Sequence record: NC_017969.1
DNA from: Escherichia phage vB_EcoS_AKFV33
DNA: 64,000 nucleotides
Strand: one strand, 5' to 3'
Position numbers and translations under genes: made by a program
Shown here: piece by piece, positions 121 to 16,765 of the stretch
How the letters are laid out: each line of letters opens with the position of its first letter
Position numbering within the stretch: the stretch's first letter is position 1
Notes under the pieces: generated by a model
Databases searched by the model: none
The model's input: the letters and a program-made list of their open reading frames with translations, nothing else
Told to the model about the DNA's origin: nothing

Positions 121-855
121 TTACGCAACTTTTAATTTCTCCATGTATTGTTGCGGGCTGCAACTATATTCTGCGCGTTCTTCCTCGGTCATACCTTCCC
201 AACATAATTTCAAACGATCAGCTAGGAATTGATAATCATTATCATCATCGAGGGATTCATCAATAAAGGTTTCACCTATTAATGCCACGCCGATTGATAG
301 AATATCGTTAACGGCTTGTGCGTCCAGTGTTTTAAATCCGTATGACGCTGCCGCTGATAGCACGCCTTTATGATCATCAATCATTGTAAAATCAGCGTTC
401 GGATATAACTGTTTAAATAACTCAAAATAATAAGATTTATACACTGCGTCCTTGCTGTGGTATATTTCGCTAACCTTATCAGCTTTAAAATATTTATGCA
501 GTGTGTCGCGGGAAAACACGCGGATATTGCTTTTATCACGACCACGCAAGCCTTGTTTGCGCAGGAAGTAATAATCTGATTTGCTCATTAGTCGAGCGGT
601 GCAAATAATGTTTAAAGTATTTGAGTCATTCATGCACTGGCGCATGTATTCAACTAATGGTAATAAAGTATCTTGCATTATTAAATGATGTTTGCAGGCT
701 TCATTTTTATACTTATTTAAATCTAAATTACCCTCATTATCAAAGCAAGGCGCTACACGATGGAAAGAATTAATGATAGTGCCGTCTAAATCCCAAATCA
801 TGACGCGGGAAATATGCGGGAAGCTGCGGGAAATATTCATAATAGCTTTATTCAT
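121..855 (-). CDS. dmp: 5'-deoxyribonucleotidase, HAD-family phosphatase (pre-early)
   Basis: 244 aa ORF; N-terminal HAD motif I (WDLDGTII); first gene of leftward pre-early operon as in T5-like phages. Confidence 0.8.
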   Translation of the reverse strand: MNKAIMNISRSFPHISRVMIWDLDGTIINSFHRVAPCFDNEGNLDLNKYKNEACKHHLIMQDTLLPLVEYMRQCMNDSNTLNIICTARLMSKSDYYFLRKQGLRGRDKSNIRVFSRDTLHKYFKADKVSEIYHSKDAVYKSYYFELFKQLYPNADFTMIDDHKGVLSAAASYGFKTLDAQAVNDILSIGVALIGETFIDESLDDDNDYQFLADRLKLCWEGMTEEERAEYSCSPQQYMEKLKVA

Positions 856-941
856 TTGTTACGTTCTCCATTTAAGGGATTAGATTAATTCAATCTAGCC
901 CACTAATTATATTTTATTAGTGGGCTATGTTCAATTAACTA

Positions 942-1343
942 TTAGAACACCAGACCAAAAGCAAGAGCATCAGCGATAAAACTAACATCCTCACCTGATA
1001 CATGGGAACGAATACCCGCGCAGGTATATACTTTTGCACTGATCAATTGATCATCGAGGCAAGCGAGGCAAGGCGCGACAACTGCAAAGGCTAGGCCGGA
1101 TTTTACGGCGTCGATGATAATCGTTTCTTGTTTCACAGTGTCAACATAAACACCTTTTGCTTTAATATGGCTGGTTAGTTTACCTTGCATATATGCAAAG
1201 GTAGTAACCTGCAAGGCGTCGTTAAAGTCCAATAGCTCATCAATAACGTGCCCCGCCTCGACGTGGTAACGTTCGCCATTAGAATAAACCAGAACAATTG
1301 AGGATTGAGCGCGATCGAATGGAATGCGATTAGATTTAGCCAT
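942..1343 (-). CDS. hypothetical pre-early protein
   Basis: 133 aa ORF; conserved AATCCC..GGAG-type leader upstream. Confidence 0.5.
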   Translation of the reverse strand: MAKSNRIPFDRAQSSIVLVYSNGERYHVEAGHVIDELLDFNDALQVTTFAYMQGKLTSHIKAKGVYVDTVKQETIIIDAVKSGLAFAVVAPCLACLDDQLISAKVYTCAGIRSHVSGEDVSFIADALAFGLVF

Positions 1344-1379
1344 GTTTATAACTCCAATTAGTTTAATAAGGGGTTTAAT

Positions 1380-1637
1380 TTATTTGATAATAATCTGCAT
1401 CTGGTACGGCGTTAATTCACCGTTTACGGGTAAGTTATTATCGCTTAGCCACTCATAAAAAGCACCATCATCATCAAAAGGGACAATATCGTTATCACGG
1501 GAATCGACGGAAATAATACCATCCGTATTAGTTTTGGCGGCTAGGATAGGTCCGAAGCTGTAAACTTTATCGGATTCCATTTCATCCGGTGAAATGAATA
1601 CTTTTTCGTCCAATGTTTTGGGTAATGTAACTTTCAT
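1380..1637 (-). CDS. hypothetical pre-early protein
   Basis: 85 aa ORF, acidic, SD upstream. Confidence 0.45.
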   Translation of the reverse strand: MKVTLPKTLDEKVFISPDEMESDKVYSFGPILAAKTNTDGIISVDSRDNDIVPFDDDGAFYEWLSDNNLPVNGELTPYQMQIIIK

Positions 1638-1694
1638 TCTAATTTAGCTCCTATAATAGCGGCTATATTTCAAGCCGCTAGGGTAATAATTTAA

Positions 1695-3359
1695 TTATGC
1701 AAAGAATTTACCGTTTTTAAAGTCAATCAAAGTGCGCTGACCGTTTGCATAGGTAATTAAATGCGTTTGCGTCCAGCTTGACGCGCCAACGTTGTAACCC
1801 ATGTCCAGACTACCAGCTACGCCAGCGGTGTATACGCCACCGTAAATGCTGGCGGTATGAGTGTGTCCAGTGTTCAGTTTACCCAATTTCTTAAACTGTT
1901 TCGGATTGCCACGGCTGCCGTTAATGCCGTTGTGACCGTGTACGCCGCATTCAATGCCTGCAATCTTGAAAGATTGATCAGTAGTCAGGAAAATGGCGTT
2001 AAATTCACAACCTGCAACCTTGCGCAGCGCATAATCTAGCACGTTGAAGGTGTCGTCTTTTTCTGCAATAGCTCCATAAATCGCGGCATTTAGGCGGTGA
2101 TATAGTTCGGCGTTGGCGGGATCGTCTTTGATGTTAGCATTACGATCATCCAGCCAACGGGATAACGCCAGATCATGGTTAGATTCAACAATGATTGTTT
2201 GAGAAAAATCGCGCTCCATTGACTCCAACACGCGCCCCGTATCGATAAGATCATCCAGAACTTTATCACGTCCGGCGGCATACTGTTTTGCTAGGAATAC
2301 ACCGGATGCGCGGTTATGATGATTGCGGGATGTAAAATCATGCACGTCATGCACAAACTGATATTTTGGTTTAAGAATATCAAGCAAGCTATTTTCGCCA
2401 GCCCATGACGCAACGGCACAATCATCATCCAGTTTTTCGGCGTGAATATCGCCATATTGCAAGCCTAAAACATGCCCCGACGTTTCATAGCATCCGGCAG
2501 GAGTAGCGCAAACATTCAGATCATAAAATACCCCGCTTTCATCCATCGTTTCAAGCTGGCGAACAAAAAACTCACCGTCTTCGTCGAACTCGACAACAAG
2601 CGCACCGAAATTATGCAATGCTTCGGCTTTTTGTCCTGCCTTCTGCTGAATGTAGTTTTTGAGCGTTGCCGTTCCAGTTGAATACATACGGCGCACTACT
2701 TCACCTTTTAAAGCTGGCACGCTTTCGGCGGTAATTTTAGCGTGACCAATTGCCAGACCTTCCAGATTAAGCGCCGTTGCAGTTTCAGCGAATCCAGAAA
2801 GCGGATAATCTGCGGTGGGCAAAACGTTAATTTCAGCCATGAAAGCAAAACGGCGGTTATTTAAAAACACGTTTTTGCTGCAAATATATTTATCGAATGC
2901 GGAATCATATTTTATCCCATCCGCGCCCTCGCCATTTTGGAATCCGTTTTTATTATAAATATACTTAGAAACAAGCAAATCAGCACCGATAAATTGGGCA
3001 TATTGCTCCAGACTTGCTAAAAAGTTTTTATGCGGGAAAGTATTATTCTGAATCGATGTAATAATAAAGCGTTTGCCCTGCTTTACTTCCCAGCTTTCCA
3101 CCGTGCTAGAAACAATCCCCGCCGCTTCTGGGCGCTCATCGTTTTTAATGGCTTTTGCTACTTTTGCCGCTTTTGGTTTGACTGGTTTATTTGCTTCCAG
3201 CCAATCACAAATGGCGGTGGAGTGTTTAGTAGTATCGTATACCGCTTTCGAAATATCGTCACAAACTTCCAATTTAGTGGCGCGCAGACGTTTACCGTAG
3301 AAATTGAAGTCAGCGGCCATTTTCAGGATAACGGTTTGTTTTTCTGCGGAAATAATCAT
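1695..3359 (-). CDS. A1: A1-like pre-early protein with C-terminal calcineurin-like metallophosphoesterase domain
   Basis: 554 aa ORF; phosphoesterase motifs (GDIH, HGHNG, GHTH) in C-terminal half; lies between dmp and A2 as in T5. Confidence 0.8.
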   Translation of the reverse strand: MIISAEKQTVILKMAADFNFYGKRLRATKLEVCDDISKAVYDTTKHSTAICDWLEANKPVKPKAAKVAKAIKNDERPEAAGIVSSTVESWEVKQGKRFIITSIQNNTFPHKNFLASLEQYAQFIGADLLVSKYIYNKNGFQNGEGADGIKYDSAFDKYICSKNVFLNNRRFAFMAEINVLPTADYPLSGFAETATALNLEGLAIGHAKITAESVPALKGEVVRRMYSTGTATLKNYIQQKAGQKAEALHNFGALVVEFDEDGEFFVRQLETMDESGVFYDLNVCATPAGCYETSGHVLGLQYGDIHAEKLDDDCAVASWAGENSLLDILKPKYQFVHDVHDFTSRNHHNRASGVFLAKQYAAGRDKVLDDLIDTGRVLESMERDFSQTIIVESNHDLALSRWLDDRNANIKDDPANAELYHRLNAAIYGAIAEKDDTFNVLDYALRKVAGCEFNAIFLTTDQSFKIAGIECGVHGHNGINGSRGNPKQFKKLGKLNTGHTHTASIYGGVYTAGVAGSLDMGYNVGASSWTQTHLITYANGQRTLIDFKNGKFFA

Positions 3360-3449
3360 AGTAATAAAACTCCATTAAAGGGATTAGGTTAATAACGGCA
3401 ATATTGCCAAATATAACGCCTCGAACAATAGGCGTTATAATTTGCAACA

Positions 3450-3647
3450 TTAATTTAAAGGCATAAGGCTAGAACTAACACCACAAGCAACGGCGGCAAT
3501 AAAACAAATCAGACCTAAACGTTTTGCTAATTTAGATTTACGTTTAAAATAATACGAATCTAAATCATTTTGAAAATAAGCGAACAATAACGAGGCCGCC
3601 ATAATAAATAAGCCTAGAATTAAAGATTCAGTAGGGAAGAAAACCAT
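3450..3647 (-). CDS. small membrane protein
   Basis: 65 aa ORF with hydrophobic segments; conserved leader motif upstream. Confidence 0.4.
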   Translation of the reverse strand: MVFFPTESLILGLFIMAASLLFAYFQNDLDSYYFKRKSKLAKRLGLICFIAAVACGVSSSLMPLN

Positions 3648-3738
3648 TTTTTAAAACTCCTGATTTAAGGGAAGAAAATAACTATCGCTAAACAGTTATA
3701 TTATTGCCCCCTCACTAGAAGGGGGCAAGGTATAACTA

Positions 3739-4146
3739 TTATTCCCCTGCGGCTTGTTTTACTTCATCGGCAACGCCTAGCAGTTGCGCTACGGCGTCCA
3801 GCGTTTCAAGTTTTGCACTTTCCAGACTTGCCAGATCATCGGCGTCTTTGATAATGCCGGAATCAATAGCATGTTTAGCGATAACGCGCACATAGTGAGC
3901 TTTACGCACAGAGCTACCGCCGCCAACTTTACGCGGCTTATCGCTTTTTTGATAGGCTTTTGCACTGGTCAATTTTGACCGAACGGATACGGGAGAAGCC
4001 GCGCCTACTGCTTTTGCAATCTCTTTTAAACCGTCGCTATTTGCGAAATCTAAACCGTTTTCATTGATTAACTGCTGGTACATAGAAACAGCTTTCTGAG
4101 TGTTTTCTTCGTTCCATGCGAATTTTGCGGTTTTTGCGTTAGTCAT
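3739..4146 (-). CDS. A2: A2-like pre-early protein
   Basis: 135 aa ORF directly upstream of A1 in operon order; size and position match T5 A2. Confidence 0.65.
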   Translation of the reverse strand: MTNAKTAKFAWNEENTQKAVSMYQQLINENGLDFANSDGLKEIAKAVGAASPVSVRSKLTSAKAYQKSDKPRKVGGGSSVRKAHYVRVIAKHAIDSGIIKDADDLASLESAKLETLDAVAQLLGVADEVKQAAGE

Positions 4147-4936: not shown

Positions 4937-5223
4937 ATCGTCGATTCCTTATAATGAATAAGTTTACCGCCGATAGGCTTTAAGATATACCCAATTTTTA
5001 AAGAGCGTGGCGGTAAACTTCCCGCCGTGTAGTTCGTCATTGCCGCCCTACGAGATAAATAATAGGGGATTCCCGAAAATGGCGCAACCTTATTTTTGTA
5101 AAGAAACGTAAAGACACGATCCACCGAACGGCGTGCGGCGACCTGGGCGCGGCGCATTAAAATTAAAAGAAACGGGCGCGCGAATACCACAAAACAAAGC
5201 AAATAGGCAAGTAATTTTTTCAT
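4933..5223 (-). CDS. hypothetical protein with N-terminal signal/TM segment
   Basis: 96 aa ORF, N-terminus MKKLLAYLLCFVVFA. Confidence 0.35.
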   Translation of the reverse strand: MKKLLAYLLCFVVFARPFLLILMRRAQVAARRSVDRVFTFLYKNKVAPFSGIPYYLSRRAAMTNYTAGSLPPRSLKIGYILKPIGGKLIHYKESTI

Positions 5224-5393
5224 TTATATTTGCTTTCCCCTACTTGACAAAATCTAAAAAGCTCGTGGTAGCGATAAACGGCTTATCCCCTTATGATGGG
5301 ATGGCTAAAAACTTCATCGCGTTCTAGGGCGTTTTAGACGTGTTCTAGCCCTGTTGATAACTTATCCCCAAAAGCAAAAATGAAATTTTCCTA

Positions 5394-5429
5394 GTTATCC
5401 ACTTGACTTTTATTTTCCAGTGGATAACT
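5394..5429. promoter_or_regulatory. inverted pair of DnaA-box-like sites (AGTTATCCAC / GTGGATAACT) with 16-bp spacer
   Basis: perfect 10-bp inverted repeat containing TTATCCAC. Confidence 0.45.
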
Positions 5430-5678
5430 ACTTATTTTATAAAATTAATTAATTGACTTTTATTTGTTAGTATGTATCGGAAAGATAGCAGACTAATAAT
5501 TACTAGAATAATAACCATGCTGGTGGATTGTAACGGCCTAAACTATCAGCAGACTATTAATCACGAAAAATCTCGTTAGCTAACTAACTATTTCATGATG
5601 TATAATATACATATAAATTAATGAGAAATAATAACTATAAGAAACTATCGGCCTAAGTGAGAACCACTATCATTTAAG

Positions 5679-5771
5679 TTATCCACAAGTTTATTAACAG
5701 CACAAAATGATTTGACACGATAGGCGGCGATATAAAGACTTATCCACAGACTTATCCACAGGTTATCCTAC
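5679..5771. promoter_or_regulatory. cluster of DnaA boxes (TTATCCACA x3 plus TTATCCTAC)
   Basis: exact matches to DnaA box consensus at about 5679, 5740, 5752. Confidence 0.5.
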
Positions 5772-5786
5772 TGTATAAATATACAG
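5740..5786. repeat. left arm of inverted repeat (CTTATCCACAG..TTATCCTACTGTATAAATATACAG)
   Basis: reverse-complement copy found at 8876-8911. Confidence 0.5.
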
Positions 5787-6053
5787 GGTAGAAAGGTAGT
5801 GTTAACAACTGCAATCAATTTTAAGCGGCCTAAAACGCTTTCTAACGAGCTAAATGCGGTGGGATAATATTAAAGTAAAGCCTTCACCCGTCGCCCTGGT
5901 GGCTTCGCCGTGGTTTGCTCTTTATTACACCGCTGCGCGGTTAGCATAAAACTAGGCGCTAGGCAAGGAAAATAAAAAGGTAAAATAATATTTGCCCCTA
6001 GAAAGAAAATACCTTTATCATTCACTCACCGATTAACGAGGGAGGCCGAACAA

Positions 6054-7046
6054 ATGAGGCTTTATAAACCTGATAATGCCACCGTTTTAAAAGGTGCATT
6101 GCGTAACCTGCTGGACGGTAGCAGGTCAACCAGCATCAAACATTTTGTTTTCAATATTGAAACTATTCATCGTAATTTTATTGATGATTATGATGCTTAT
6201 AATATGAATAGTTTTCTACCGTTATATAAACAAGGGGCAACGCTTGTTTTATATAATCAGGATTATCAATTGCTTACTAGCAGGGGGTCGGATACTGATT
6301 TCATAATCGTAAAAGGTAGCACAGTAAAAGCCTATGATACCGGGGCGGGCTTAGAAGTTTTCACAATAGAAAACTATGAGGCTAATGATAATGATCTTTA
6401 TGATGTAGAAAATTTTCTCGATTCATTTTGGCGTTATTTATCAGTTGGCTGGAATCGATCAGATTATGACGGGTATCGTTTTGCGGCTGTAATGGCTTTT
6501 GATGATAACGGTAATTTTTTGTTACCGTCGGAATTATGCCCTTATGTATATAATGATCTAATAGAAGAGGCTGGTTTTTCTTTCTGGAAAGATGATGATC
6601 AGCCCATTGACAATACAGAAAAACATGCTGTAAATTCTAACACTCAAAGCGTTAATACTCAAATCACTGAAAACAAAGGAAAAAACACCATGACCAAGAT
6701 CGCTAATATTGTTGCCGCTAATAAATCCGCTGTTGTAAATGCTGCAAAACTGGAAGCGGGTAAAATTGCACTGACTCAAATCACGAAAGTAGCGGCTAAA
6801 AAAGCACCGTTTATTATCAAGGGTTATATTGATACGCCGATTGGTCGGGTAGTGATTGCCAACCTGCTGAGCGTAGCGGTTGACCAGTACGCCCCTAGCA
6901 ACCAAAAAGCGAAAGCGGTAGCGGGCGCAGCTATGGAAGCGGCCATGTTAGAAATGGTGCAATCTTTTAACATTGCTGAGATGATTGATGAAATGGTGAA
7001 AGGTATTGATATTTCTACTTTTACCGTTAACAACGAAAGCGAGTAA
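6054..7046 (+). CDS. hypothetical protein (rightward pre-early cassette)
   Basis: 330 aa ORF with strong SD (GAGGGAGG) 7 nt upstream of ATG; Ala/Lys-rich C-terminal half. Confidence 0.6.
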   Translation: MRLYKPDNATVLKGALRNLLDGSRSTSIKHFVFNIETIHRNFIDDYDAYNMNSFLPLYKQGATLVLYNQDYQLLTSRGSDTDFIIVKGSTVKAYDTGAGLEVFTIENYEANDNDLYDVENFLDSFWRYLSVGWNRSDYDGYRFAAVMAFDDNGNFLLPSELCPYVYNDLIEEAGFSFWKDDDQPIDNTEKHAVNSNTQSVNTQITENKGKNTMTKIANIVAANKSAVVNAAKLEAGKIALTQITKVAAKKAPFIIKGYIDTPIGRVVIANLLSVAVDQYAPSNQKAKAVAGAAMEAAMLEMVQSFNIAEMIDEMVKGIDISTFTVNNESE

Positions 7047-7073
7047 TAGCTAACCTAGTGTAAAGTTTTGTAA

Positions 7074-7100
7074 AGGTCGCCTTTTATGGTGGCCTTTTTT
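7074..7100 (+). terminator. rho-independent terminator candidate
   Basis: hairpin AGGTCGCC/GGTGGCCT (with G-U pairs) followed by TTTTTT. Confidence 0.45.
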
Positions 7101-7162
7101 GTTATAATGCCTTTACACCAAAACGGTGGATTGAAAATTTCCCAAAAAATTGGAGGCTTATA

Positions 7163-7393
7163 ATGGTTGCTTACTCTTCTGCTAGTCATCTGTTCACCGC
7201 TCAAGGCTGGGTATCTAACCGCGTTATTATTCACGAAATGGTGCAAGAATATGGCATTGCTAAAACTTATAACACCATTCAGGAATTATATAACGCTGAT
7301 AAGATTGATCAGCAAACGGCTGGCTTTTTGCTAGATACCCTGAAAGCTGAACATTGCACTAAAAAACAAGCCGCTAAAATTGTTTTAATGTAA
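7163..7393 (+). CDS. hypothetical protein
   Basis: 76 aa ORF, SD GGAGG upstream. Confidence 0.45.
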   Translation: MVAYSSASHLFTAQGWVSNRVIIHEMVQEYGIAKTYNTIQELYNADKIDQQTAGFLLDTLKAEHCTKKQAAKIVLM

Positions 7394-7400
7394 TTAATAA

Positions 7401-7421
7401 CGGGGGATATTATATCCCCCG
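7401..7421 (+). terminator. stem-loop (CGGGGGATAT/TATATCCCCCG), terminator-like
   Basis: perfect 10-bp palindrome just after stop of 7163-7393. Confidence 0.3.
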
Positions 7422-7442
7422 ATAACTAGGAGGCTATCACAA

Positions 7443-7592
7443 ATGGTTATTTTTCGAGCTATTTTAGCGGGTATCTTGGGCGCTATTTTATCTTTGTTTG
7501 CAATAGCTTTCGGCGTTCACGCGGTTATTATCGGCGCGGGTATCGCTGTATTTTCTTATCTGCTGGGCTGCATGACTAGTAAAGGAGAATAA
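7443..7592 (+). CDS. small hydrophobic peptide (49 aa)
   Basis: ATG preceded by SD AGGAGG; product MVIFRAILAGILGAILSLFAIAFGVHAVIIGAGIAVFSYLLGCMTSKGE; below ORF-track size cutoff. Confidence 0.4.
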   Translation: MVIFRAILAGILGAILSLFAIAFGVHAVIIGAGIAVFSYLLGCMTSKGE

Positions 7593-7594
7593 AA

Positions 7595-7807
7595 ATGATC
7601 CGCAACGTTTCTCTTGCACGTTCGAAAGGCTTTAAGCTGGTGGATGCTAACACGTTCGAGCGTCCAGATTGTAAAATCGAATATGTAGCACGTAATAAAA
7701 ATGCCTTTCGTGTTACCGAGAAAAAATTCGACAAGCGCGGCAACGTGATCGCTGAAACGGTTAAACACTTTGCCACCTTTTACGCTGCGTTTCGTGGGGT
7801 ACTATGA
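7595..7807 (+). CDS. hypothetical protein
   Basis: 70 aa ORF, SD AAAGGAG upstream. Confidence 0.45.
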   Translation: MIRNVSLARSKGFKLVDANTFERPDCKIEYVARNKNAFRVTEKKFDKRGNVIAETVKHFATFYAAFRGVL

Positions 7808-7947
7808 AAAGCGTTATTGTTATTATCCTTGCAATGGTTAGCGGTTTTACCGCCACCTTATTTAAAAATGACCCCATTTCGTTGGGGATCTTTATGCTTT
7901 TATCTGGCTATCTGATCGGGAGGCTAACAAATGATTCAGCAAATTAA
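7804..7947 (+). CDS. small membrane peptide (47 aa)
   Basis: ATGA start/stop overlap with upstream gene; hydrophobic product MKSVIVIILAMVSGF... Confidence 0.35.
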   Translation: MKSVIVIILAMVSGFTATLFKNDPISLGIFMLLSGYLIGRLTNDSAN

Positions 7948-8053
7948 AACGGCTTTTCGTTTTTGGGGCGTCCTGCCTTCAATCGGTTTTATTCTGATAA
8001 TCATTAGTCAGCTAATGATTATAGGAGGAACTATTTGGGAGCTATGCAAATGA
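7931..8053 (+). CDS. small membrane peptide (40 aa)
   Basis: ATG with SD GGGAGG upstream; hydrophobic product MIQQIKTAFRFWGVLPSIGFILIII... Confidence 0.3.
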   Translation: MIQQIKTAFRFWGVLPSIGFILIIISQLMIIGGTIWELCK

Positions 8054-8394
8054 TAATTTATGAAGGCAATCGCTTTGTTGCTAATTGCCGTACGGCATTA
8101 CTAGCAAATTACTTAAATCAGCTTTCCCCAGCTTACAAGGGCGTTATTAATATTTATGAGGGCAAGGCGCATTATAAAATCAATGCGGTCGTTGCCCGTG
8201 AACTAGCGTTTCAATTTTTGACCTTTGCATCTTGTGACGTTCAGGTTATGGGTGAGGCATTAATTGCAGAAAATGAAGATGATTTTATTAATATTTTCCG
8301 CAAGATATGCACCGAGCGGCTGATAATGAAAGGCGCATATATTCAATCCACTGCGGATAGCATTGAAACAGCATTTCGAAAGGTGGCGCAGTGA
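8044..8394 (+). CDS. hypothetical protein
   Basis: ORF track 8035-8394 begins at a TTG; ATG at 8044 has SD AGGAGG upstream. Confidence 0.5.
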   Translation: MQMIIYEGNRFVANCRTALLANYLNQLSPAYKGVINIYEGKAHYKINAVVARELAFQFLTFASCDVQVMGEALIAENEDDFINIFRKICTERLIMKGAYIQSTADSIETAFRKVAQ

Positions 8395-8422
8395 GATAAT
8401 CAACTAATAACGGAGCGTTATT

Positions 8423-8617
8423 ATGAGCAATAAAATTATTGTAACCAAAACTAGTACAATGGTTGATATTTTTTACGTGCCCGATACGCCGGAAAACCGA
8501 CAAGCGGTCGAGCGTGGCGAATATGATAAAGTGATTTATGATCACGATGGTTATTATCATTATTTGGTAGATTCCTATGGGGAGGAGGAAAAAATCACGC
8601 ACCGACTACCGGACTAA
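8423..8617 (+). CDS. hypothetical protein
   Basis: 64 aa ORF, SD GGAG upstream. Confidence 0.45.
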   Translation: MSNKIIVTKTSTMVDIFYVPDTPENRQAVERGEYDKVIYDHDGYYHYLVDSYGEEEKITHRLPD

Positions 8618-8658
8618 TAATCACGGGGCGCAACTATCAGGAAGTGCCCCCAATTCTC

Positions 8659-8679
8659 AAATGAGAATGATTCTCATTT
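8659..8679. repeat. perfect palindrome AAATGAGAATGATTCTCATTT
   Basis: operator-like dyad symmetric site. Confidence 0.5.
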
Positions 8680-8875
8680 GACCGCGCTCGCGATGGTTAG
8701 CCTGCTAATGGTTAGGGTGTTACGTGTCGCCTTGTGTGATCGTTAGCGGGCTAACTAATTTTCAAGCCTCCTCCAATTTTGCCCTTGTTTTAGTATCTCC
8801 ACCAAAATTAAACGCGTTAGAATGCGATCTAGGACGTTTTAGCGGTATATTAGAATTATTCACTACATAGGAATA

Positions 8876-8911
8876 CTGTATATTTATACAGTAGGATAAG
8901 CTGTGGATAAG
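8876..8911. repeat. right arm of inverted repeat with DnaA box (CTGTATATTTATACAGTAGGATAAGCTGTGGATAAG)
   Basis: reverse complement of 5740-5786 region. Confidence 0.5.
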
Positions 8912-9002
8912 TCTGTTAATAACGCTTCAAAATGGCTAGGATTCTGTCAAATCAAATCGTGCTGTTAATAAGTCTGAGGATAACTTAAATAATAGTGTTT
9001 CT

Positions 9003-9175
9003 CACTTCCATTCTTAAATGCGAATCATTATCATTCGCATTTCACTATCTAACCGATAATCACTCCACTTTTTAAATGAGAATCATTTCACTTTTTGAAT
9101 AGCTCTCATTTCACTTCTTAAATGAGAATAATTATCATTTGCATTCCACTTCTTAAATGATAATGATTCTCATTC
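9003..9175. repeat. four direct copies of ~22-bp motif CACTTCTTAAATGAGAATCATT (some internally palindromic)
   Basis: copies near 9003, 9063, 9107, 9148. Confidence 0.5.
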
Positions 9176-9180
9176 AAAGT

Positions 9181-9200
9181 CGCAGGGCAATTGCCCTGCG
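9181..9200 (+). other. perfect 20-bp palindrome CGCAGGGCAATTGCCCTGCG (hairpin, terminator-like)
   Basis: followed by CTTTTG. Confidence 0.35.
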
Positions 9201-9205
9201 CTTTT

Positions 9206-9943
9206 GTGCAAATCCGACATTGCTCCACGGGTGTTACGTGCGGGCATGTATGTGCGAATCCGACAATTTTTGGTAGTGTGCAAATCCGACCCGAAAAATT
9301 TTTATAGTGTGCAAATCCGACAATGAATTTTCCCAAAAACTCCAGCAATCCGATGCTGCGCATCAATCCTGTGGAATTAGCTAGAATATGTGCAAATCCG
9401 ACATGGGTTTATTTGTGCGAAACCGACAAGATTTTTGTGACTTCGATTGGAGGGTGTGTGATTGTATGGGTTTGGGGAGAAGATAAGAGAGCGAGAGAAA
9501 TTTGGGAGGCTAGAAGGATGGGGCGCATGTTTGGTGCGGAGCACCTGATTTGCGGGGATTTTGGGGAAGAGTTGAGAAGATTTGGGTTAATTTGAGATAA
9601 GTGCAGAAAAAGTAAAATTTTATTAGCAAAATGGGGCAAAATAGCTTGACAAGTGAAAATTTCTGTGGCTCTAAAAACTCAGGCAATCATGGGCCTTCGG
9701 CCCGAAATAATGCTGCCATTTTCAGGAGATTATGTGTCCATGAAAACTTAGGCAATTGTGCAAATCCGACCAGTTTTTAAACTTATGTCAGTGTGCAAAT
9801 CCGACAGTAATTTCTGTAAATGTGTTTTCAAAAAATGTCTCCTAGAAATAACCGCCCTCCCAATAACCGCCCTGTATAGGAAAACCGGCCTAGGATATTT
9901 ATAGCAGGAGAGAAACTGCCCTATAATATGTGCAAATACGACA
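9206..9943 (+). repeat. array of nine direct 14-bp repeats GTGCAAATCCGACA (iteron-like)
   Basis: copies at about 9206, 9251, 9277, 9308, 9389, 9414, 9767, 9792, 9930, all in the same orientation, 0-2 mismatches. Confidence 0.6.
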
Positions 9944-10281
9944 GGATTTTCCTAGAAACTTAGGAGTCTACTAGAAAGTGTTGTGCCATCCTAGGAAGAG
10001 CGGTGGCAACAAGTGTATCATCTTGAATGTAAATTATGTGGTCAAAAGTTTTACCTTTAATTTAAGTATAAGATCCCCCAAAGATTGGAAGAGATGCTCC
10101 ACCCCTGGGATACGAATTGCGTGAGATGGTACAAAACTTCTTAAGATTTCCCTAGCCCTTCGACAAGCTACGGGGGAAATAGAAGTTTCCCATCCACTAT
10201 CCGTATCCGGGTGGATCTCTTTATTCTATGTTATTTCATAGAGTTATTATAACATGCAGAAATCATAACGTCAAGTAGAGT

Positions 10282-11172
10282 TTATTCATCGAACATGAGA
10301 TTTCCTTTCATCCCCATCTCCGCATACTCCATGAGTTCTTTGATGGATCTCACGGGGTAATCTACTTTACTAAAGTTATCATAGATCTTGCACGAACTCT
10401 CGTACAACTCGTTAGGTATCTGCAATTTGTTATCTGTTAGCTTCTCATAACGTGCAGAAGAATTTGTACCCTCAAATAGAACTGCGATAACTGCGGCGAT
10501 TTGTTTAGTAAGATCATCTGCTCCTAGAATTATTCTATTAATAGCAATCGTTACTTCATGCTTAGGTTTAGCAGGCGGAAGGATAGGTTTGAGATCCTTA
10601 GGTAAAGGTTCTGTTCCTAGGAATCCTTCTTTTGTGCGGAACCAATAATTATCTAGATCAGATATCGTCTTAGACTTATTCCAAATAGTAAAGCAGGGTT
10701 TATTTCCTTCACGATCTCTGTATTCACGAACTGGAAGGTAATGATCAGGGAATGAATTGAGTGCATCATGCATCGGTGAGCCTGTCTTTTTGAAGGACAA
10801 ACCATATAACTCATTATAATTCATAACTTCATCTTCGTAAACATGGAAATCTTTATATGCTGGAAGATTAAACCATTCCTGAAGTGAATGAACTGCAAAA
10901 CGTTGTGCCCAAGCATGCATCACTAGAACTCTGTATTCTTTTACTTCATCTTTTGGAGAAGTACCTTTAGCTGTTCTAGCTGAACGAATACAGAACATCT
11001 CAACAACACGTTTCTCATTTAAAGAGAGTTCAGAATAACAACGTTCATGGCAGCCTTCTAGCATTTCTAGAAGTTCACGTAGTTTCTCTACATCGACCGG
11101 TGGAAAAGGTCTTTCTTCAACTGCGAATTTACCAGTTACACCTTTTGGTTTTCTATTACTATAAAATCCCAT
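10282..11172 (-). CDS. hypothetical protein
   Basis: 296 aa ORF; translationally coupled (ATGA overlap) with upstream ORF. Confidence 0.55.
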   Translation of the reverse strand: MGFYSNRKPKGVTGKFAVEERPFPPVDVEKLRELLEMLEGCHERCYSELSLNEKRVVEMFCIRSARTAKGTSPKDEVKEYRVLVMHAWAQRFAVHSLQEWFNLPAYKDFHVYEDEVMNYNELYGLSFKKTGSPMHDALNSFPDHYLPVREYRDREGNKPCFTIWNKSKTISDLDNYWFRTKEGFLGTEPLPKDLKPILPPAKPKHEVTIAINRIILGADDLTKQIAAVIAVLFEGTNSSARYEKLTDNKLQIPNELYESSCKIYDNFSKVDYPVRSIKELMEYAEMGMKGNLMFDE

Positions 11173-16007: not shown

Positions 16008-16174
16008 TTTGATTCCTTCTCATCAATTTATAAAGTAATTATACAGAAACTTAAGCATTTTAGCAAATAAAACTTTTAATTAAAATGCCTAATCCCGTAC
16101 CAATAGCAATACAAAGGATTATAAGTATTGCTATCGCTTGTATGATTCGTTTAATAATAGCCCCAGCTATATAC

Positions 16175-16765
16175 TCAGACATTTATATCACCACGTAATA
16201 CAGCAGCTACATCTTCCCCTATTTGTAATACTTCGCCGGTAGTACAATTAACTACTCTGTCATAGCTAGTAAACTTACCAGACACAATATCCTCTAGTGG
16301 AACTGGAGTTTTACTCATTTCAAATGAGACATTAATATAACGTGGGTCACGTAAAGAAATAGTATGTACATGTCCGTGAATATTTAATTTGCCACGAAGT
16401 TCATTAGGATGTAAAGGGCAGTGAGATAGCCAAAACTTTTTGCCACCTCCAGTCTGTTTACCTAGAGCCTGAATATCATCATAAACTTCTGCTAAGTCCC
16501 TAATGCTCAGTCCTTGACGTTCCGCATCATGATTACCCATAATAAGTTGGTTAGGAACATTGTGGATAACCGACTTTAATTTGGCCAGACCTTCACGACC
16601 TACTGCAATATCCCCTAGCAAAATAAGTTTTGTTCTTTTACCAATATGCTTGGACAAAGTGTCTAGAATATACTCATCGTGCTCCTTCATGTTCTTAAAC
16701 CACGGACGGAAACGTAACGCTCCAGGGTGGTCTAAGTGCAAGTCTGACCAGAATTTAACTTTCAT
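16175..16765 (-). CDS. metallophosphoesterase (calcineurin-like)
   Basis: 196 aa; motifs DLHLDH, GDIAVG, GNHD, GHVH. Confidence 0.65.
   Translation of the reverse strand: MKVKFWSDLHLDHPGALRFRPWFKNMKEHDEYILDTLSKHIGKRTKLILLGDIAVGREGLAKLKSVIHNVPNQLIMGNHDAERQGLSIRDLAEVYDDIQALGKQTGGGKKFWLSHCPLHPNELRGKLNIHGHVHTISLRDPRYINVSFEMSKTPVPLEDIVSGKFTSYDRVVNCTTGEVLQIGEDVAAVLRGDINV

What the first reader, a model, noticed from the sequence alone, without database searches (positions are those of the whole stretch)
6054..8617. Rightward pre-early cassette: a 330-aa unknown protein plus three tiny hydrophobic peptides
Opposite in orientation to dmp/A1/A2, this cassette encodes a 330-aa protein with no recognisable domain, followed by small ORFs including three unlisted hydrophobic peptides of 40-49 aa (7443-7592, 7804-7947, 7931-8053) with good SD sequences. 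Pre-early genes act immediately after DNA entry, so these are candidates for host takeover, membrane-acting or anti-defence functions.
Basis: partly seen in the sequence, partly recalled or inferred. Interest (0 to 1): 0.5.

Follow-up and report, generated by a model that had tools for sequence, protein, structure and literature searches.

The report
T5-type rightward pre-early gene cassette
This is the already-studied "right arm" of the first DNA a T5-like phage injects (homologues of T5 genes 011-017, some shown elsewhere to poison E. coli), here carrying two extra tiny membrane-protein genes; sequence comparison also suggests the 330-aa gene makes a second, shorter protein from an internal start.

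Summary
The ORFs are real and lie at the stated coordinates. The window is the left terminal repeat of a T5-like phage, most likely vB_EcoS_AKFV33. Region 6054-8617 is the counterpart of T5 pre-early genes 011, 012, 013, 014, 015 and 017; 016 is absent. Two 40-47-aa hydrophobic ORFs, S1 and S2, are inserted between 014 and 015.

Much of this is published for T5. Genes 011 and 015 are toxic, 013 was toxic in one of two studies, 015 is an Ung-dependent nickase of abasic sites, and the whole block can be deleted. The "unknown 330-aa protein" is Pfam DUF7566, with no fold relative.

Three observations I did not find in the papers searched:
1. The 014|015 junction is a swap site for tiny membrane ORFs. 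They are under purifying selection and chained by overlapping stop/start codons.
2. Gp011 has a fast-evolving acidic N-domain and a strongly conserved helical C-domain. That C-domain is shared by hundreds of proteins with unrelated N-termini. A conserved in-frame Met with a Shine-Dalgarno motif at the domain boundary argues for internal initiation.
3. PHROG and RefSeq label the 70-aa 014 as the Ung-dependent endonuclease. The characterised protein is the 114-aa 015.

Verdict: an ordinary member of a known kind, of modest interest.

The parts
5655..5801 (.). Left arm of a 147-nt inverted repeat that brackets the cassette. It carries DnaA-box sequences (TTATCCACA at 5679, 5740, 5752).
   Evidence: the repeat finder pair I1, 78% complementary to 8861-9007. 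DnaA-box pattern: 5 matches in the window against 0.74 expected. Corresponds to Davison's repeat regions flanking the T5 6209-9194 block.
5992..6021 (+). Sigma-70 promoter of gene 011: -35 TTGCCC, 18-nt spacer, -10 TATCAT, preceded by an A-rich stretch at 5960-5990.
   Evidence: Promoter scan. The stretch aligns almost base for base with the promoter annotated at 6411-6489 of T5 NC_005859. Annor et al. list it as experimentally characterised.
6054..7046 (+). Gene 011 homologue, 330 aa, Pfam DUF7566. Acidic alpha/beta N-domain (residues 1-187), disordered linker (188-212), helical C-domain (213-330).
   Evidence: 262/330 identical to T5.011. PF24450 at 374 bits, phrog_4263. AlphaFold2 model, mean pLDDT 83.5. 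N-domain pI 4.3, net charge -15. pN/pS 0.42 for the N-domain against 0.07 for the C-domain.
6607..6636 (+). Promoter-like element inside 011 (TTGACA, 18 nt, TAAATT), 53 nt upstream of the internal ATG. Weak inference.
   Evidence: One of the two best matches (10 of 12) in the 4-kb scan. TTGACA is kept in 19 of 24 distinct upstream sequences from relatives, including divergent ones whose -10 reads TACAAT, TACCAT or TAAACT. Absent from distant family members.
6676..7046 (+). Proposed nested in-frame gene: SD-like AAGGA (6676-6680), ATG 6690 (Met213), same stop as 011. Predicted product is the free 118-aa C-domain of about 12.4 kDa.
   Evidence: Met lies 6-16 residues before the invariant Asn in 91% of 127 family representatives, against 9-15% in four control windows. 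AAAGGA/AAAGGG plus ATG is constant in 24 alleles. An SD-like motif precedes the same Met in distant lineages. Stand-alone C-domain proteins start at that Met. Not shown experimentally.
7072..7108 (+). Rho-independent terminator after 011 (stem 7072-7097 plus T-run), immediately followed by an extended -10 sequence TGTTATAAT (7100-7108).
   Evidence: Terminator scan. Same position as the terminator annotated in T5 at 7534-7559. The -10 is read directly from the sequence. Its promoter function is inferred.
7163..7393 (+). Gene 012 homologue, 76 aa, function unknown; SD GGAGG at 7152-7156.
   Evidence: 63/76 identical to T5.012; phrog_5145. T5.012 was not toxic in either screen.
7401..7421 (.). 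GC-rich perfect hairpin (CGGGGGATAT-A-ATATCCCCCG) between 012 and 013.
   Evidence: No T-run follows it on the + strand. Function unknown.
7443..7592 (+). Gene 013 homologue, 49 aa (short allele), predicted two-helix membrane hairpin.
   Evidence: phrog_5607. 41 identical residues to the 59-aa T5.013, which has a 10-residue longer loop. GRAVY 1.74. pN/pS 0.13. T5 Gp013 is annotated with two transmembrane segments and caused lysis on expression in one study.
7595..7807 (+). Gene 014 homologue, 70 aa, basic (pI 10.2), function unknown. Widely mislabelled as the Ung-dependent endonuclease.
   Evidence: 68/70 identical to T5.014. phrog_4227 carries the endonuclease label. That label fits only the 114-aa protein. 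pN/pS 0.09, the most constrained small gene of the cassette.
7804..7947 (+). S1, a 47-aa accessory ORF absent from T5; two hydrophobic segments separated by a KNDP turn. Its start overlaps the 014 stop (ATGA).
   Evidence: phrog_19184. Exact sequence equals AKFV33 gp014. 15 alleles, pN/pS 0.27. Most of the 143 GenBank records matching the S1-S2 DNA carry the S1 half, usually alone.
7931..8053 (+). S2, a 40-aa accessory ORF absent from T5; one transmembrane segment after a basic N-terminus. SD GGGAGG at 7918-7923. Its stop overlaps the 015 start (ATGA).
   Evidence: No PHROG, Pfam or NCBIfam match. 7 alleles, pN/pS 0.30. Occurs with or without S1. The exact sequence is held from 31 contigs.
8050..8394 (+). 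Gene 015 homologue, 114 aa: the Ung-dependent nickase of abasic sites.
   Evidence: 104/114 identical to T5.015. Same length, with Lys85, Lys94 and Lys111 (the residues mutated in the inactive T5 protein) present. phrog_4379.
8423..8617 (+). Gene 017 homologue, 64 aa, acidic, function unknown. Last gene of the cassette.
   Evidence: 56/64 identical to T5.017; phrog_6973.
8861..9007 (.). Right arm of the 147-nt inverted repeat, with a DnaA box at 8902-8910 on the - strand. It lies at the start of the non-coding injection-stop region.
   Evidence: T5 annotates the injection stop signal from just after T5.017.

Best explanation
Region 6054-8617 is the rightward pre-early operon set of a T5-like phage, most likely AKFV33. 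It is homologous gene for gene to T5 011, 012, 013, 014, 015 and 017.

How it most likely works. Host sigma-70 RNA polymerase reads it within minutes of first-step DNA transfer. Transcription starts at the conserved promoter at 5992-6021, and probably again just after the terminator at 7072-7097. The products are accessory host-takeover factors, not essential replication functions.

1. Gp011 is a two-domain cytoplasmic protein that is toxic and disturbs the nucleoid (shown for T5). I infer that its rapidly evolving acidic N-domain is the effector. I infer that the strongly conserved helical C-domain is a common targeting or assembly module, and that this module is also made alone from an in-frame internal start (ATG 6690).
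2. Gp015 (8050-8394) binds host Ung and nicks the abasic sites Ung creates (shown for T5).
3. Gp013, S1 and S2 are tiny inner-membrane proteins: two helical hairpins and one single-pass peptide. They are translated as a coupled chain with 014 and 015. I infer that they act on the cytoplasmic membrane or on membrane proteins. S1 and S2 are interchangeable accessory cassettes, which points to a strain-specific role such as exclusion of competing phages or interplay with membrane-bound defences.

Homology, expression signals and coding constraint are shown here. Toxicity and nickase activity are shown only for the T5 homologues. Internal initiation and the membrane roles are inferred.
For: Identity of the region:
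- Megablast finds 527 Demerecviridae-type records.
- Gene-by-gene identities to T5 run from 41 of 49 residues (013) to 68/70 (014).
- The exact protein sequences of 011 and S1 are those of AKFV33.
- The promoter and terminator coincide with those annotated in T5.

Published function of the T5 homologues:
- 008, 011 and 015 were toxic, and 015 is the Ung-dependent nickase of abasic sites (PMC8201957).
- 011 causes nucleoid disorganisation, 013 causes lysis, and the hegG-017 block can be deleted (bioRxiv 10.64898/2026.04.02.716235).
- In the related phage Bas33, pre-early transcripts of 011-015 are abundant (PMC13250531 dataset).

Small ORFs:
- They are conserved and under purifying selection in frame only.
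- Each module ends in an SD for the next gene, and stops and starts overlap.
- Six junction states were seen between 014 and 015 across relatives.
- At least eight families of 31-62-aa transmembrane-like ORFs populate this operon in relatives.

Gp011 architecture:
- The AlphaFold2 model has two domains and a disordered linker.
- 676 cluster representatives match, mostly over the C-domain only and always at their C-terminus.
- HIRAN N-domains occur in 6 of 74 members.
- In L054 and L063 the family member carries a HIRAN-type N-terminal motif (recognised by eye) and sits in what I read, from ORF sequence motifs without a family search, as DNA replication/recombination modules.

Internal start:
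- Met enrichment is 91% against 9-15% in control windows.
- An SD-like motif precedes that Met in about 11 independent lineages.
- Synonymous divergence is lowest in the linker (pS 0.20, against 0.49 in the N-domain and 0.30 in the C-domain).
- The wild-type T5 011 gene could not be cloned, whereas a recoded gene could.
Against: - No experiment has been done on this phage. All functional data come from T5 or Bas33.
- 013 was not toxic in Mahata et al..
- In the Bas33 RNA-seq table the S1 homologue has almost no assigned reads (1.6, against 594 and about 325 for its neighbours). This is probably a counting artefact for a 126-nt gene that overlaps both neighbours, but I could not check it.
- The SD-like motif before the internal Met sits in a Lys/Glu/Gly-rich linker. 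Its purine-rich codons favour such motifs by composition, and each site ranks only in the top 2-16% of its own ORF.
- The internal promoter-like element is confined to tequintavirus-type alleles.
- No fold or family match gives Gp011 a biochemical activity.
- Distant C-domain proteins are not next to A1, A2 or dmp, so the family is not specifically pre-early.
Confidence: 0.8

Rival explanations
1. S1 (7804-7947) and S2 (7931-8053) are chance open frames in a variable spacer between 014 and 015. They are not genes.
For: They are very short. S1 lacks a strong SD. T5 itself has nothing at this junction. S2 has no PHROG family. The S1 homologue has almost no assigned RNA-seq reads in Bas33.
Against: - 15 S1 alleles and 7 S2 alleles all keep the frame open.
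- pN/pS is 0.27 and 0.30 in frame, against 0.57-1.34 out of frame, with variable sites concentrated at third positions.
- The modules begin and end exactly at coupled stop/start overlaps and carry the SD of the next gene.
- A divergent S1 relative in an Epseptimavirus keeps the same hairpin pattern.
Confidence: 0.05
2. The cassette is mainly an anti-defence island (anti-restriction, anti-RecBCD, anti-CRISPR or anti-abortive-infection) rather than a set of general host-takeover toxins. The toxicity seen on over-expression is then a side effect.
For: - The block is dispensable on laboratory strains.
- It is highly mosaic between relatives.
- The N-domain of 011 is acidic and fast evolving.
- Tequintaviruses resist restriction through an unassigned pre-early function (PMC10644984).
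- Annor et al. raise the possibility themselves.
Against: - No similarity to any known anti-defence or defence protein.
- 015 has a demonstrated host-DNA-damaging activity.
- Davison's candidate for restriction insensitivity is T5p007 in the leftward operon, not this block.
- According to the BF23 paper, insensitivity to nuclease-based defences is not characteristic of the genus Epseptimavirus, although Epseptimavirus loci carry 014 and 015 homologues.
Confidence: 0.25
3. The conserved Met at the N/C domain boundary of the 011 family is only a scar of ancient gene fusion, or a structural helix-capping residue. No separate C-domain protein is made.
For: - The stand-alone C-domain entries could be truncated gene calls on short contigs (one search shows P0127 on a 1-kb contig).
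- The SD-like motifs are encoded by Lys/Glu/Gly codons that the linker may need anyway.
- Each site is only in the top 2-16% of its ORF for anti-SD pairing.
- Mahata et al. were able to clone wild-type 011 in pBAD33.
Against: - Met is present in 91% of representatives that are less than 50% identical to each other, at a solvent-exposed, low-confidence boundary (pLDDT about 60). Flanking control windows show 9-15%.
- A scar would be expected to decay. An SD-like motif at 7-9 nt recurs in about 11 lineages with unrelated linkers.
- Synonymous divergence is lowest in the linker.
Confidence: 0.35
4. Gp011 is a virion structural protein, as one GenBank record annotates its homologue.
For: Phage HMD-P3 labels the homologue 'putative virion structural protein'.
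Against: - The gene sits in the first-step-transfer DNA behind a pre-early promoter.
- Every other record seen calls it hypothetical.
- Virion mass spectrometry of AKFV33 found only capsid, tail tube, tail fibre and pb2 (PMC3326045).
- The T5 protein is toxic when expressed alone in the cytoplasm.
Confidence: 0.03

Closest known systems
Bacteriophage T5 pre-early genes T5.011-T5.017 (NC_005859, left terminal repeat)
   Same: Same position between the two DnaA-box repeat regions, same orientation, and the same promoter and terminator. Orthologues of 011, 012, 013, 014, 015 and 017, from 41 of 49 residues identical (013) to 68/70 (014).
   Different: 016 is absent. 013 is the short 49-aa allele. 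Two extra micro-ORFs (S1, S2) sit between 014 and 015. hegG upstream is absent. The N-domain of 011 is only moderately conserved.
T5.015, the Ung-dependent nickase of abasic sites (Mahata et al. 2021, PMC8201957)
   Same: 8050-8394 encodes a 114-aa protein 91% identical to T5.015, with Lys85, Lys94 and Lys111 conserved.
   Different: Activity has not been tested for this allele. Here the gene is translationally coupled to S2 rather than following 014 directly.
In-frame nested genes made by internal initiation (lambda C/Nu3, T7 gene 4A/4B, Tn5 transposase/inhibitor); named from my own knowledge
   Same: A conserved in-frame ATG with its own SD at a domain boundary would yield the C-terminal domain as a separate polypeptide alongside the full-length protein.
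   Different: No sequence or fold relationship to any of these. The short product is not demonstrated. Its role (assembly partner, regulator or competitor of the long form) is unknown.
HIRAN-domain proteins (PF08797)
   Same: A minority of DUF7566-family members carry an N-terminal HIRAN domain fused to the same C-domain. In two metagenomic contigs (L054, L063) the family member carries a HIRAN-type N-terminal motif recognised by eye and sits in what I read, from ORF sequence motifs, as replication/recombination modules.
Small phage inner-membrane proteins (T4 Imm and Sp, HK97 gp15 in superinfection exclusion) and bacterial type I toxins (Hok, TisB); named from my own knowledge
   Same: Size of 30-60 aa, one or two transmembrane helices, toxicity on over-expression (shown for T5 Gp013 only), and accessory, patchy distribution.
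   Different: No sequence similarity. No antisense RNA or exclusion phenotype is known. They are expressed before most of the genome has entered the cell.

Membership tests
T5-type first-step-transfer (pre-early) rightward cassette | Lies in the terminal repeat, opposite in orientation to dmp-A1-A2, between the two DnaA-box repeat regions and upstream of the injection stop signal. | tested here: met
   dmp, A1 and A2 are on the - strand at 121-4146. Inverted repeat arms with DnaA boxes lie at 5655-5801 and 8861-9007. The repeat-rich non-coding stretch starts after 8617.
T5-type first-step-transfer (pre-early) rightward cassette | Orthology of the genes to T5.011-T5.017. | tested here: met
   Global alignments: 262/330, 63/76, 41/49, 68/70, 104/114 and 56/64 identical residues. 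016 is absent; S1 and S2 are extra.
T5-type first-step-transfer (pre-early) rightward cassette | Expression before second-step transfer. | not testable with these tools
   Only the conserved promoter and RNA/protein data from the relative Bas33 bear on this.
Pfam DUF7566 (PF24450) | Score above the curated gathering threshold over the full model. | tested here: met
   374.4 bits against a cut-off of 27, covering residues 2-329 on model positions 5-335 of 336.
Ung-dependent AP-site nickase (T5.015 of Mahata et al.), applied to ORF 8050-8394 | Orthology to the 114-aa T5.015, with the lysines whose mutation inactivates it (K85, K94, K111). | tested here: met
   104/114 identical with no indels. 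K85, K94 and K111 are present.
Ung-dependent AP-site nickase (T5.015 of Mahata et al.), applied to ORF 8050-8394 | Binds Ung and nicks abasic sites; toxicity is abolished in a strain lacking ung. | not testable with these tools
   Biochemistry and genetics exist only for the T5 protein.
Ung-dependent AP-site nickase label as applied by PHROG/RefSeq to ORF 7595-7807 (014, phrog_4227) | Being the protein characterised by Mahata et al., which has residues K85, K94 and K111. | tested here: not met
   014 has only 70 residues. The gene list in the paper follows NC_005859 numbering, and the triple mutant fits the 114-aa T5.015 exactly.
Nested in-frame gene (internal translation initiation) in 011 | Conserved in-frame start codon at a domain boundary. 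| tested here: met
   Met lies 6-16 residues before the invariant Asn in 91% of 127 representatives, against 9-15% in control windows.
Nested in-frame gene (internal translation initiation) in 011 | SD-like sequence 5-10 nt upstream of that start. | tested here: met
   AAAGGA/AAAGGG is constant in 24 alleles. AGGAG, GAGGA, AAGGA or GGAG occurs in about 11 distant lineages, with anti-SD duplex energies of -4.3 to -6.6 kcal/mol, in the top 2-16% of each ORF. Linker composition may contribute.
Nested in-frame gene (internal translation initiation) in 011 | The short polypeptide is detected in vivo. | not testable with these tools
   No ribosome profiling or N-terminal proteomics was available.
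Holins | A small membrane protein encoded next to an endolysin and expressed late to time lysis. | tested here: not met
   013, S1 and S2 have transmembrane-like segments. They lie in the pre-early operon next to 014 and 015, with no lysis gene nearby.
HIRAN domain (PF08797), applied to the N-domain of the window's Gp011 | Pfam HIRAN match or HIRAN fold. | tested here: not met

The most novel reading that the evidence does not exclude
The DUF7566 family, of which Gp011 is the T5-type member, may be a modular effector system. In this reading, many unrelated N-terminal 'warheads' (the acidic T5-type domain, HIRAN DNA-end binders and others) are fused to one conserved helical C-domain. That C-domain is also produced on its own from a conserved internal ribosome-binding site. 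Full-length and short forms would then co-assemble or compete, as in lambda C/Nu3 or Tn5 transposase/inhibitor, to target or regulate a DNA-directed toxic activity. Alongside it, the 014|015 junction would act as a plug-and-play slot where T5-like phages exchange tiny membrane proteins, each bringing the ribosome-binding site for the next gene.
Probability: 0.45. Interest if true: 0.55.

Novelty: new member of a known kind. Interest (0 to 1): 0.35.

Why it matters
T5 pre-early genes are the first tools the phage uses after DNA entry, and most of them still lack a mechanism.

- Gp011 is one of the few that is reproducibly toxic, yet the most recent study says it "resists functional predictions". 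The two-domain dissection and the internal start give testable handles: express the N-domain, the C-domain and a Met213 mutant separately.
- Recognising the 014|015 junction as an exchange slot for micro membrane proteins identifies a set of natural variants (none, S1, S2, S1+S2, S3). These can be compared for host range, exclusion or membrane effects.
- Correcting the 014/015 label matters in practice. The wrong 70-aa family (phrog_4227) now carries the "Ung-dependent endonuclease" name into many new phage annotations.

None of this changes the general picture of T5 biology.

Tried and rejected
- Family scans of all eight ORFs against NCBIfam and PADLOC gave no real hit.
- An Rfam scan of 5200-10300 gave only sub-threshold noise.
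- A homology search with the C-domain alone returned only 8 close fragments and was uninformative.
- The search for related loci with the C-domain alignment failed for lack of a conserved stretch. A degenerate DNA pattern for M-x-R-G-Y-A-D-T worked instead.
- I looked for A1, A2 or dmp next to distant family members and found none. The idea that the family is always pre-early is rejected.
- I tested whether an internal promoter is a family-wide feature. It is not.
- I considered an Ocr-like DNA mimic for the acidic N-domain. The charge (-15 over 187 aa) is unremarkable and there is no fold support, so I did not pursue it.
- I looked for proteomic evidence for the small peptides in the Bas33 dataset. 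The held text contained only RNA tables.
- The AKFV33 record itself is not in the annotated collection. That S2 is unannotated there is therefore inferred from the ORF numbering.

Full report
**What the window is.** Megablast of 5500-9000 finds 527 phage records, almost all Tequintavirus and related Demerecviridae, at 80-95% identity. Comparison with the annotated T5 genome (NC_005859) shows that the first ~10 kb of the window is the left terminal repeat. This is the first-step-transfer DNA that enters the cell first. dmp (121-855), A1 (1695-3359) and A2 (3739-4146) lie on the - strand. An exact-sequence look-up assigns the window's 330-aa protein and its 47-aa peptide to Escherichia phage vB_EcoS_AKFV33, as gp010 and gp014. 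The window is therefore most likely that phage. Its record is not in the annotated collection.

**Check of the observation.** Global alignment with the T5 proteins gives this map:

| Window ORF | T5 counterpart | Identity |
|---|---|---|
| 6054-7046 | T5.011 | 262/330 |
| 7163-7393 | T5.012 | 63/76 |
| 7443-7592 | T5.013 | 41 of 49; T5 has a 10-residue longer loop |
| 7595-7807 | T5.014 | 68/70 |
| 7804-7947 (S1) | none | - |
| 7931-8053 (S2) | none | - |
| 8050-8394 | T5.015 | 104/114 |
| 8423-8617 | T5.017 | 56/64 |

T5.016 has no counterpart. So two of the three "tiny hydrophobic peptides" are additions relative to T5, and the third is the known T5.013, which T5 annotates with two transmembrane domains. 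PHROG families exist for all ORFs except S2. Pfam recognises the 330-aa protein as DUF7566, a family without known function (374 bits).

**Are the small ORFs genes?** All three are strongly hydrophobic. They rank 2nd, 4th and 8th of the 86 ATG-ORFs of 40-60 aa in the 64-kb window.
- I fetched 35 related loci through the 015 protein and further GenBank loci.
- From these I collected 28 distinct nucleotide alleles of 013 (17 of them the short form), 15 of S1 and 7 of S2.
- In the annotated frame, pN/pS is 0.13 (short-form 013), 0.27 (S1) and 0.30 (S2). In the two other frames it is 0.57-1.95. Variable sites pile up at third codon positions.
- The neighbouring 014 gives 0.09.
- These are coding sequences under purifying selection, not chance frames.

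**Anatomy of the chain.**
- The S1 start overlaps the 014 stop (ATGA at 7804-7807).
- S2 starts inside the S1 tail, behind a GGGAGG at 7918-7923.
- The S2 stop overlaps the 015 start (ATGA at 8050-8053).
- Across relatives, each module ends in codons that double as the Shine-Dalgarno (SD) sequence of whatever follows: GTGGGG for 014, GGGAGG for S1, GGGAG for S2 and GAGGA for a third family, S3.

**A swap site.** The 014|015 junction takes at least six states in relatives:
- nothing, as in T5;
- S1 only, the commonest state;
- S1+S2, as in the window and in 14 GenBank records;
- S2 only;
- S2 followed by a divergent S1-like ORF;
- a 35-aa S3.

More widely, this operon holds at least eight families of 31-62-aa transmembrane-like ORFs in relatives. 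The junction thus behaves as a plug-and-play slot for micro membrane proteins. Davison had already noted that this block is the most variable part of the terminal repeat (bioRxiv 10.1101/866236). I found no description of the small-ORF slot itself.

**Expression signals.**
- The promoter-like site at 5992-6021 (TTGCCC, 18 nt, TATCAT, behind an A-rich stretch) aligns base for base with the promoter annotated upstream of T5.011. Annor et al. list that promoter as experimentally characterised.
- A terminator at 7072-7097 matches the one annotated in T5. It is followed at once by TGTTATAAT (7100-7108), a possible restart promoter.
- In the relative Bas33, RNA-seq gives high values for 011 and 012 and lower ones for 013, 014 and 015 (3540, 2363, 537, 594 and about 325).
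- The 126-nt S1 homologue has almost no assigned reads (1.6) (PMC13250531 dataset). I suspect reads spanning the overlapping neighbours were discarded, but I could not verify this.

**What is already known.**
- Mahata et al. cloned 13 T5 genes of unknown function. They found 008, 011 and 015 toxic, and showed that 015 binds Ung and nicks the abasic sites Ung makes (PMC8201957).
- Annor et al. (bioRxiv 10.64898/2026.04.02.716235) found seven toxic pre-early genes, including 011, 013 and 015. Gene 011 gave slightly elongated cells with uneven nucleoid staining. Gene 013 gave shrunken, lysed cells.
- Wild-type 011 could not be cloned in pBAD24, whereas a synonymously recoded gene could.
- A phage lacking hegG through 017 is viable, with smaller plaques when that deletion is combined with left-arm deletions.

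**An annotation error found on the way.** RefSeq and phrog_4227 give the name [quoted passage not shown] to the 70-aa 014. Mahata's gene list follows NC_005859 numbering. Their inactive mutant is K85A K94A K111A. Those lysines exist only in the 114-aa T5.015, and all three are conserved in the window's 8050-8394 product. The nickase of this cassette is therefore 8050-8394, not 7595-7807.

**The 330-aa protein.** An exhaustive profile-free search of 1.84 billion representatives finds 676 relatives at E <= 1e-3.
- Only a handful align over the full length.
- Most match residues ~200-325 only, always at their own C-terminus, behind N-terminal parts of very different lengths.
- In a sample of 74, six carry an N-terminal HIRAN domain and one an ExoX-like C domain.
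- In two metagenomic contigs (L054, L063) the family member carries a HIRAN-type N-terminal motif, recognised by eye. It sits among ORFs that I read, from sequence motifs alone and without a family search, as polymerase, nuclease, ATPase and helicase genes. No A1, A2 or dmp lies nearby.

AlphaFold2 with this alignment gives a confident model (mean pLDDT 83.5):
- an alpha/beta N-domain, with helices and strands spanning residues 9-177;
- a disordered linker (188-210);
- a six-helix C-domain (212-327).

**A probable internal start.** At the linker/C-domain boundary the window has Met213 (ATG 6690), preceded by AAGGA at 6676-6680.
- Among 127 representatives that have an N-terminal part, 91% have a Met 6-16 residues before the invariant Asn223. 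Four equally wide control windows further upstream show 9-15%.
- Stand-alone C-domain proteins begin exactly there.
- AAAGGA/AAAGGG plus ATG is constant in 24 related alleles.
- I obtained DNA of distant members through a degenerate pattern and from GenBank.
- In that DNA the same Met is preceded at 7-9 nt by AGGAG, GAGGA, AAGGA or GGAG in about 11 independent lineages. Anti-SD pairing there is in the top 2-16% of each ORF.
- Synonymous divergence is lowest in the linker (pS 0.20).

I infer that the family makes two products from one frame: the full-length protein and a free C-domain of about 12 kDa.

A promoter-like TTGACA-18-TAAATT at 6607-6636, one of the two best matches in the 4-kb scan, lies 53 nt upstream. 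It is largely conserved in tequintavirus-type alleles but absent from distant lineages. It may explain why wild-type 011 resisted cloning in a high-copy vector, but that is speculation.

Caveats: the linker's Lys/Glu/Gly codons favour SD-like strings by composition, and nothing has been shown at the protein level.

**Mechanism, with steps marked.**
- Shown here: homology, operon anatomy, coding constraint, and the domain architecture of 011.
- Shown elsewhere for T5: toxicity of 011 and 015, toxicity of 013 in one of two studies, nickase activity of 015, and dispensability of the block.
- Inferred: the N-domain of 011 is the effector; the C-domain is a shared targeting or assembly module, also made alone; 013, S1 and S2 insert in the inner membrane as two hairpins and one single-pass peptide; their patchy distribution reflects strain-specific roles such as exclusion or interplay with membrane-bound defences.
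- I could not assign a biochemical activity to 011, 012, 014, 017, S1 or S2.

**Context noticed.** The cassette is bracketed by a 147-nt inverted repeat (5655-5801 and 8861-9007, 78% complementary) that carries DnaA boxes. These are the repeat regions Davison ties to the injection stop. Nine copies of TGTGCAAATCCGACA follow at 9205-9945.

**Verdict.** The cassette is an ordinary member of a known kind with published functional data. Three modest additions come out of this work: the micro-ORF slot, the bipartite 011 with a likely nested gene, and the 014/015 mislabel. Interest 0.35.

Noticed in passing
window 7595-7807 versus 8050-8394; T5 NC_005859 T5.014 versus T5.015 (L002 8086-8298 / 8300-8644): RefSeq and phrog_4227 attach 'endonuclease nicking abasic sites generated by host uracil glycosylase Ung' to the 70-aa 014 family. 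The inactive mutant of the characterised protein (K85A K94A K111A) fits only the 114-aa 015 family (phrog_4379, labelled 'unknown function'). The label appears to be off by one gene and is propagating into new phage records.
   Followed up: yes
window 5655-5801 and 8861-9007: A 147-nt inverted repeat (78% complementary) brackets the whole rightward cassette. It contains DnaA-box sequences TTATCCACA (5679, 5740, 5752 on +; 8902 on -): five in the window against 0.74 expected. It matches the repeat regions Davison links to the injection stop signal.
   Followed up: partly
window 9205-9945: Nine copies of a 17-mer (TGTGCAAATCCGACA-like), plus several AT-rich 30-mers (8651-9176), fill the non-coding stretch after gene 017. 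This is presumably the injection-stop region.
   Followed up: no
window 5224-6053: About 830 bp upstream of 011 hold no convincing gene. The T5 homing-endonuclease gene hegG (T5.010) that occupies this position in T5 is absent here.
   Followed up: partly
window 7401-7421: A perfect GC-rich hairpin (CGGGGGATAT-A-ATATCCCCCG) sits between 012 and the SD of 013, with no T-run on the + strand. In Bas33 the RNA value drops about four-fold between 012 and 013. I did not check whether Bas33 has the same hairpin or whether it is a processing or attenuation site.
   Followed up: no
window 7443-7592; L002 7904-8083 and other loci: Gene 013 exists in two allelic forms across relatives. The short form (47-49 aa, loop 'GVH') is the one in the window. 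The long form (59-60 aa) has an inserted loop TAYGIQDSYCGLVNTKPMV, as in T5. The two forms are mixed among otherwise close phages.
   Followed up: partly
L013 and L023 (IMG/VR UViG_2974620381, a 121,040-bp contig), about 2545-2755: In this relative the 014 homologue is interrupted: a 34-aa ORF is followed by an out-of-frame match to residues 27-70. S1, S2 and 015 downstream are intact. This is either a pseudogene or a sequencing error.
   Followed up: no
L078 1788-1883 (Vibrio phage 2.275.O) and L076 1764-1862 (Enterobacter phage KKP_3711): In two distant phages the DUF7566-family gene is followed closely by a 31-32-aa transmembrane ORF: its start overlaps the stop in the Vibrio phage, and it begins about 50 nt downstream in KKP_3711. 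This hints at a recurrent pairing of this family with a tiny membrane protein.
   Followed up: no
PMC13250531 Dataset S1, gene bas33_0173 (S1 homologue of phage Bas33): The S1 homologue has an expression value of 1.6, while its overlapping neighbours have 594 and about 325. This is probably an artefact of read assignment for a 126-nt gene that overlaps both neighbours, but it is unverified.
   Followed up: partly
window 16060-16182 (-) and 3450-3647 (-): Two other small hydrophobic ORFs lie outside the finding. One is a 40-aa ORF with the highest hydrophobicity of its size class in the window (GRAVY 1.81). The other is the 65-aa homologue of the two-transmembrane T5.005, in the leftward pre-early operon.
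   Followed up: no
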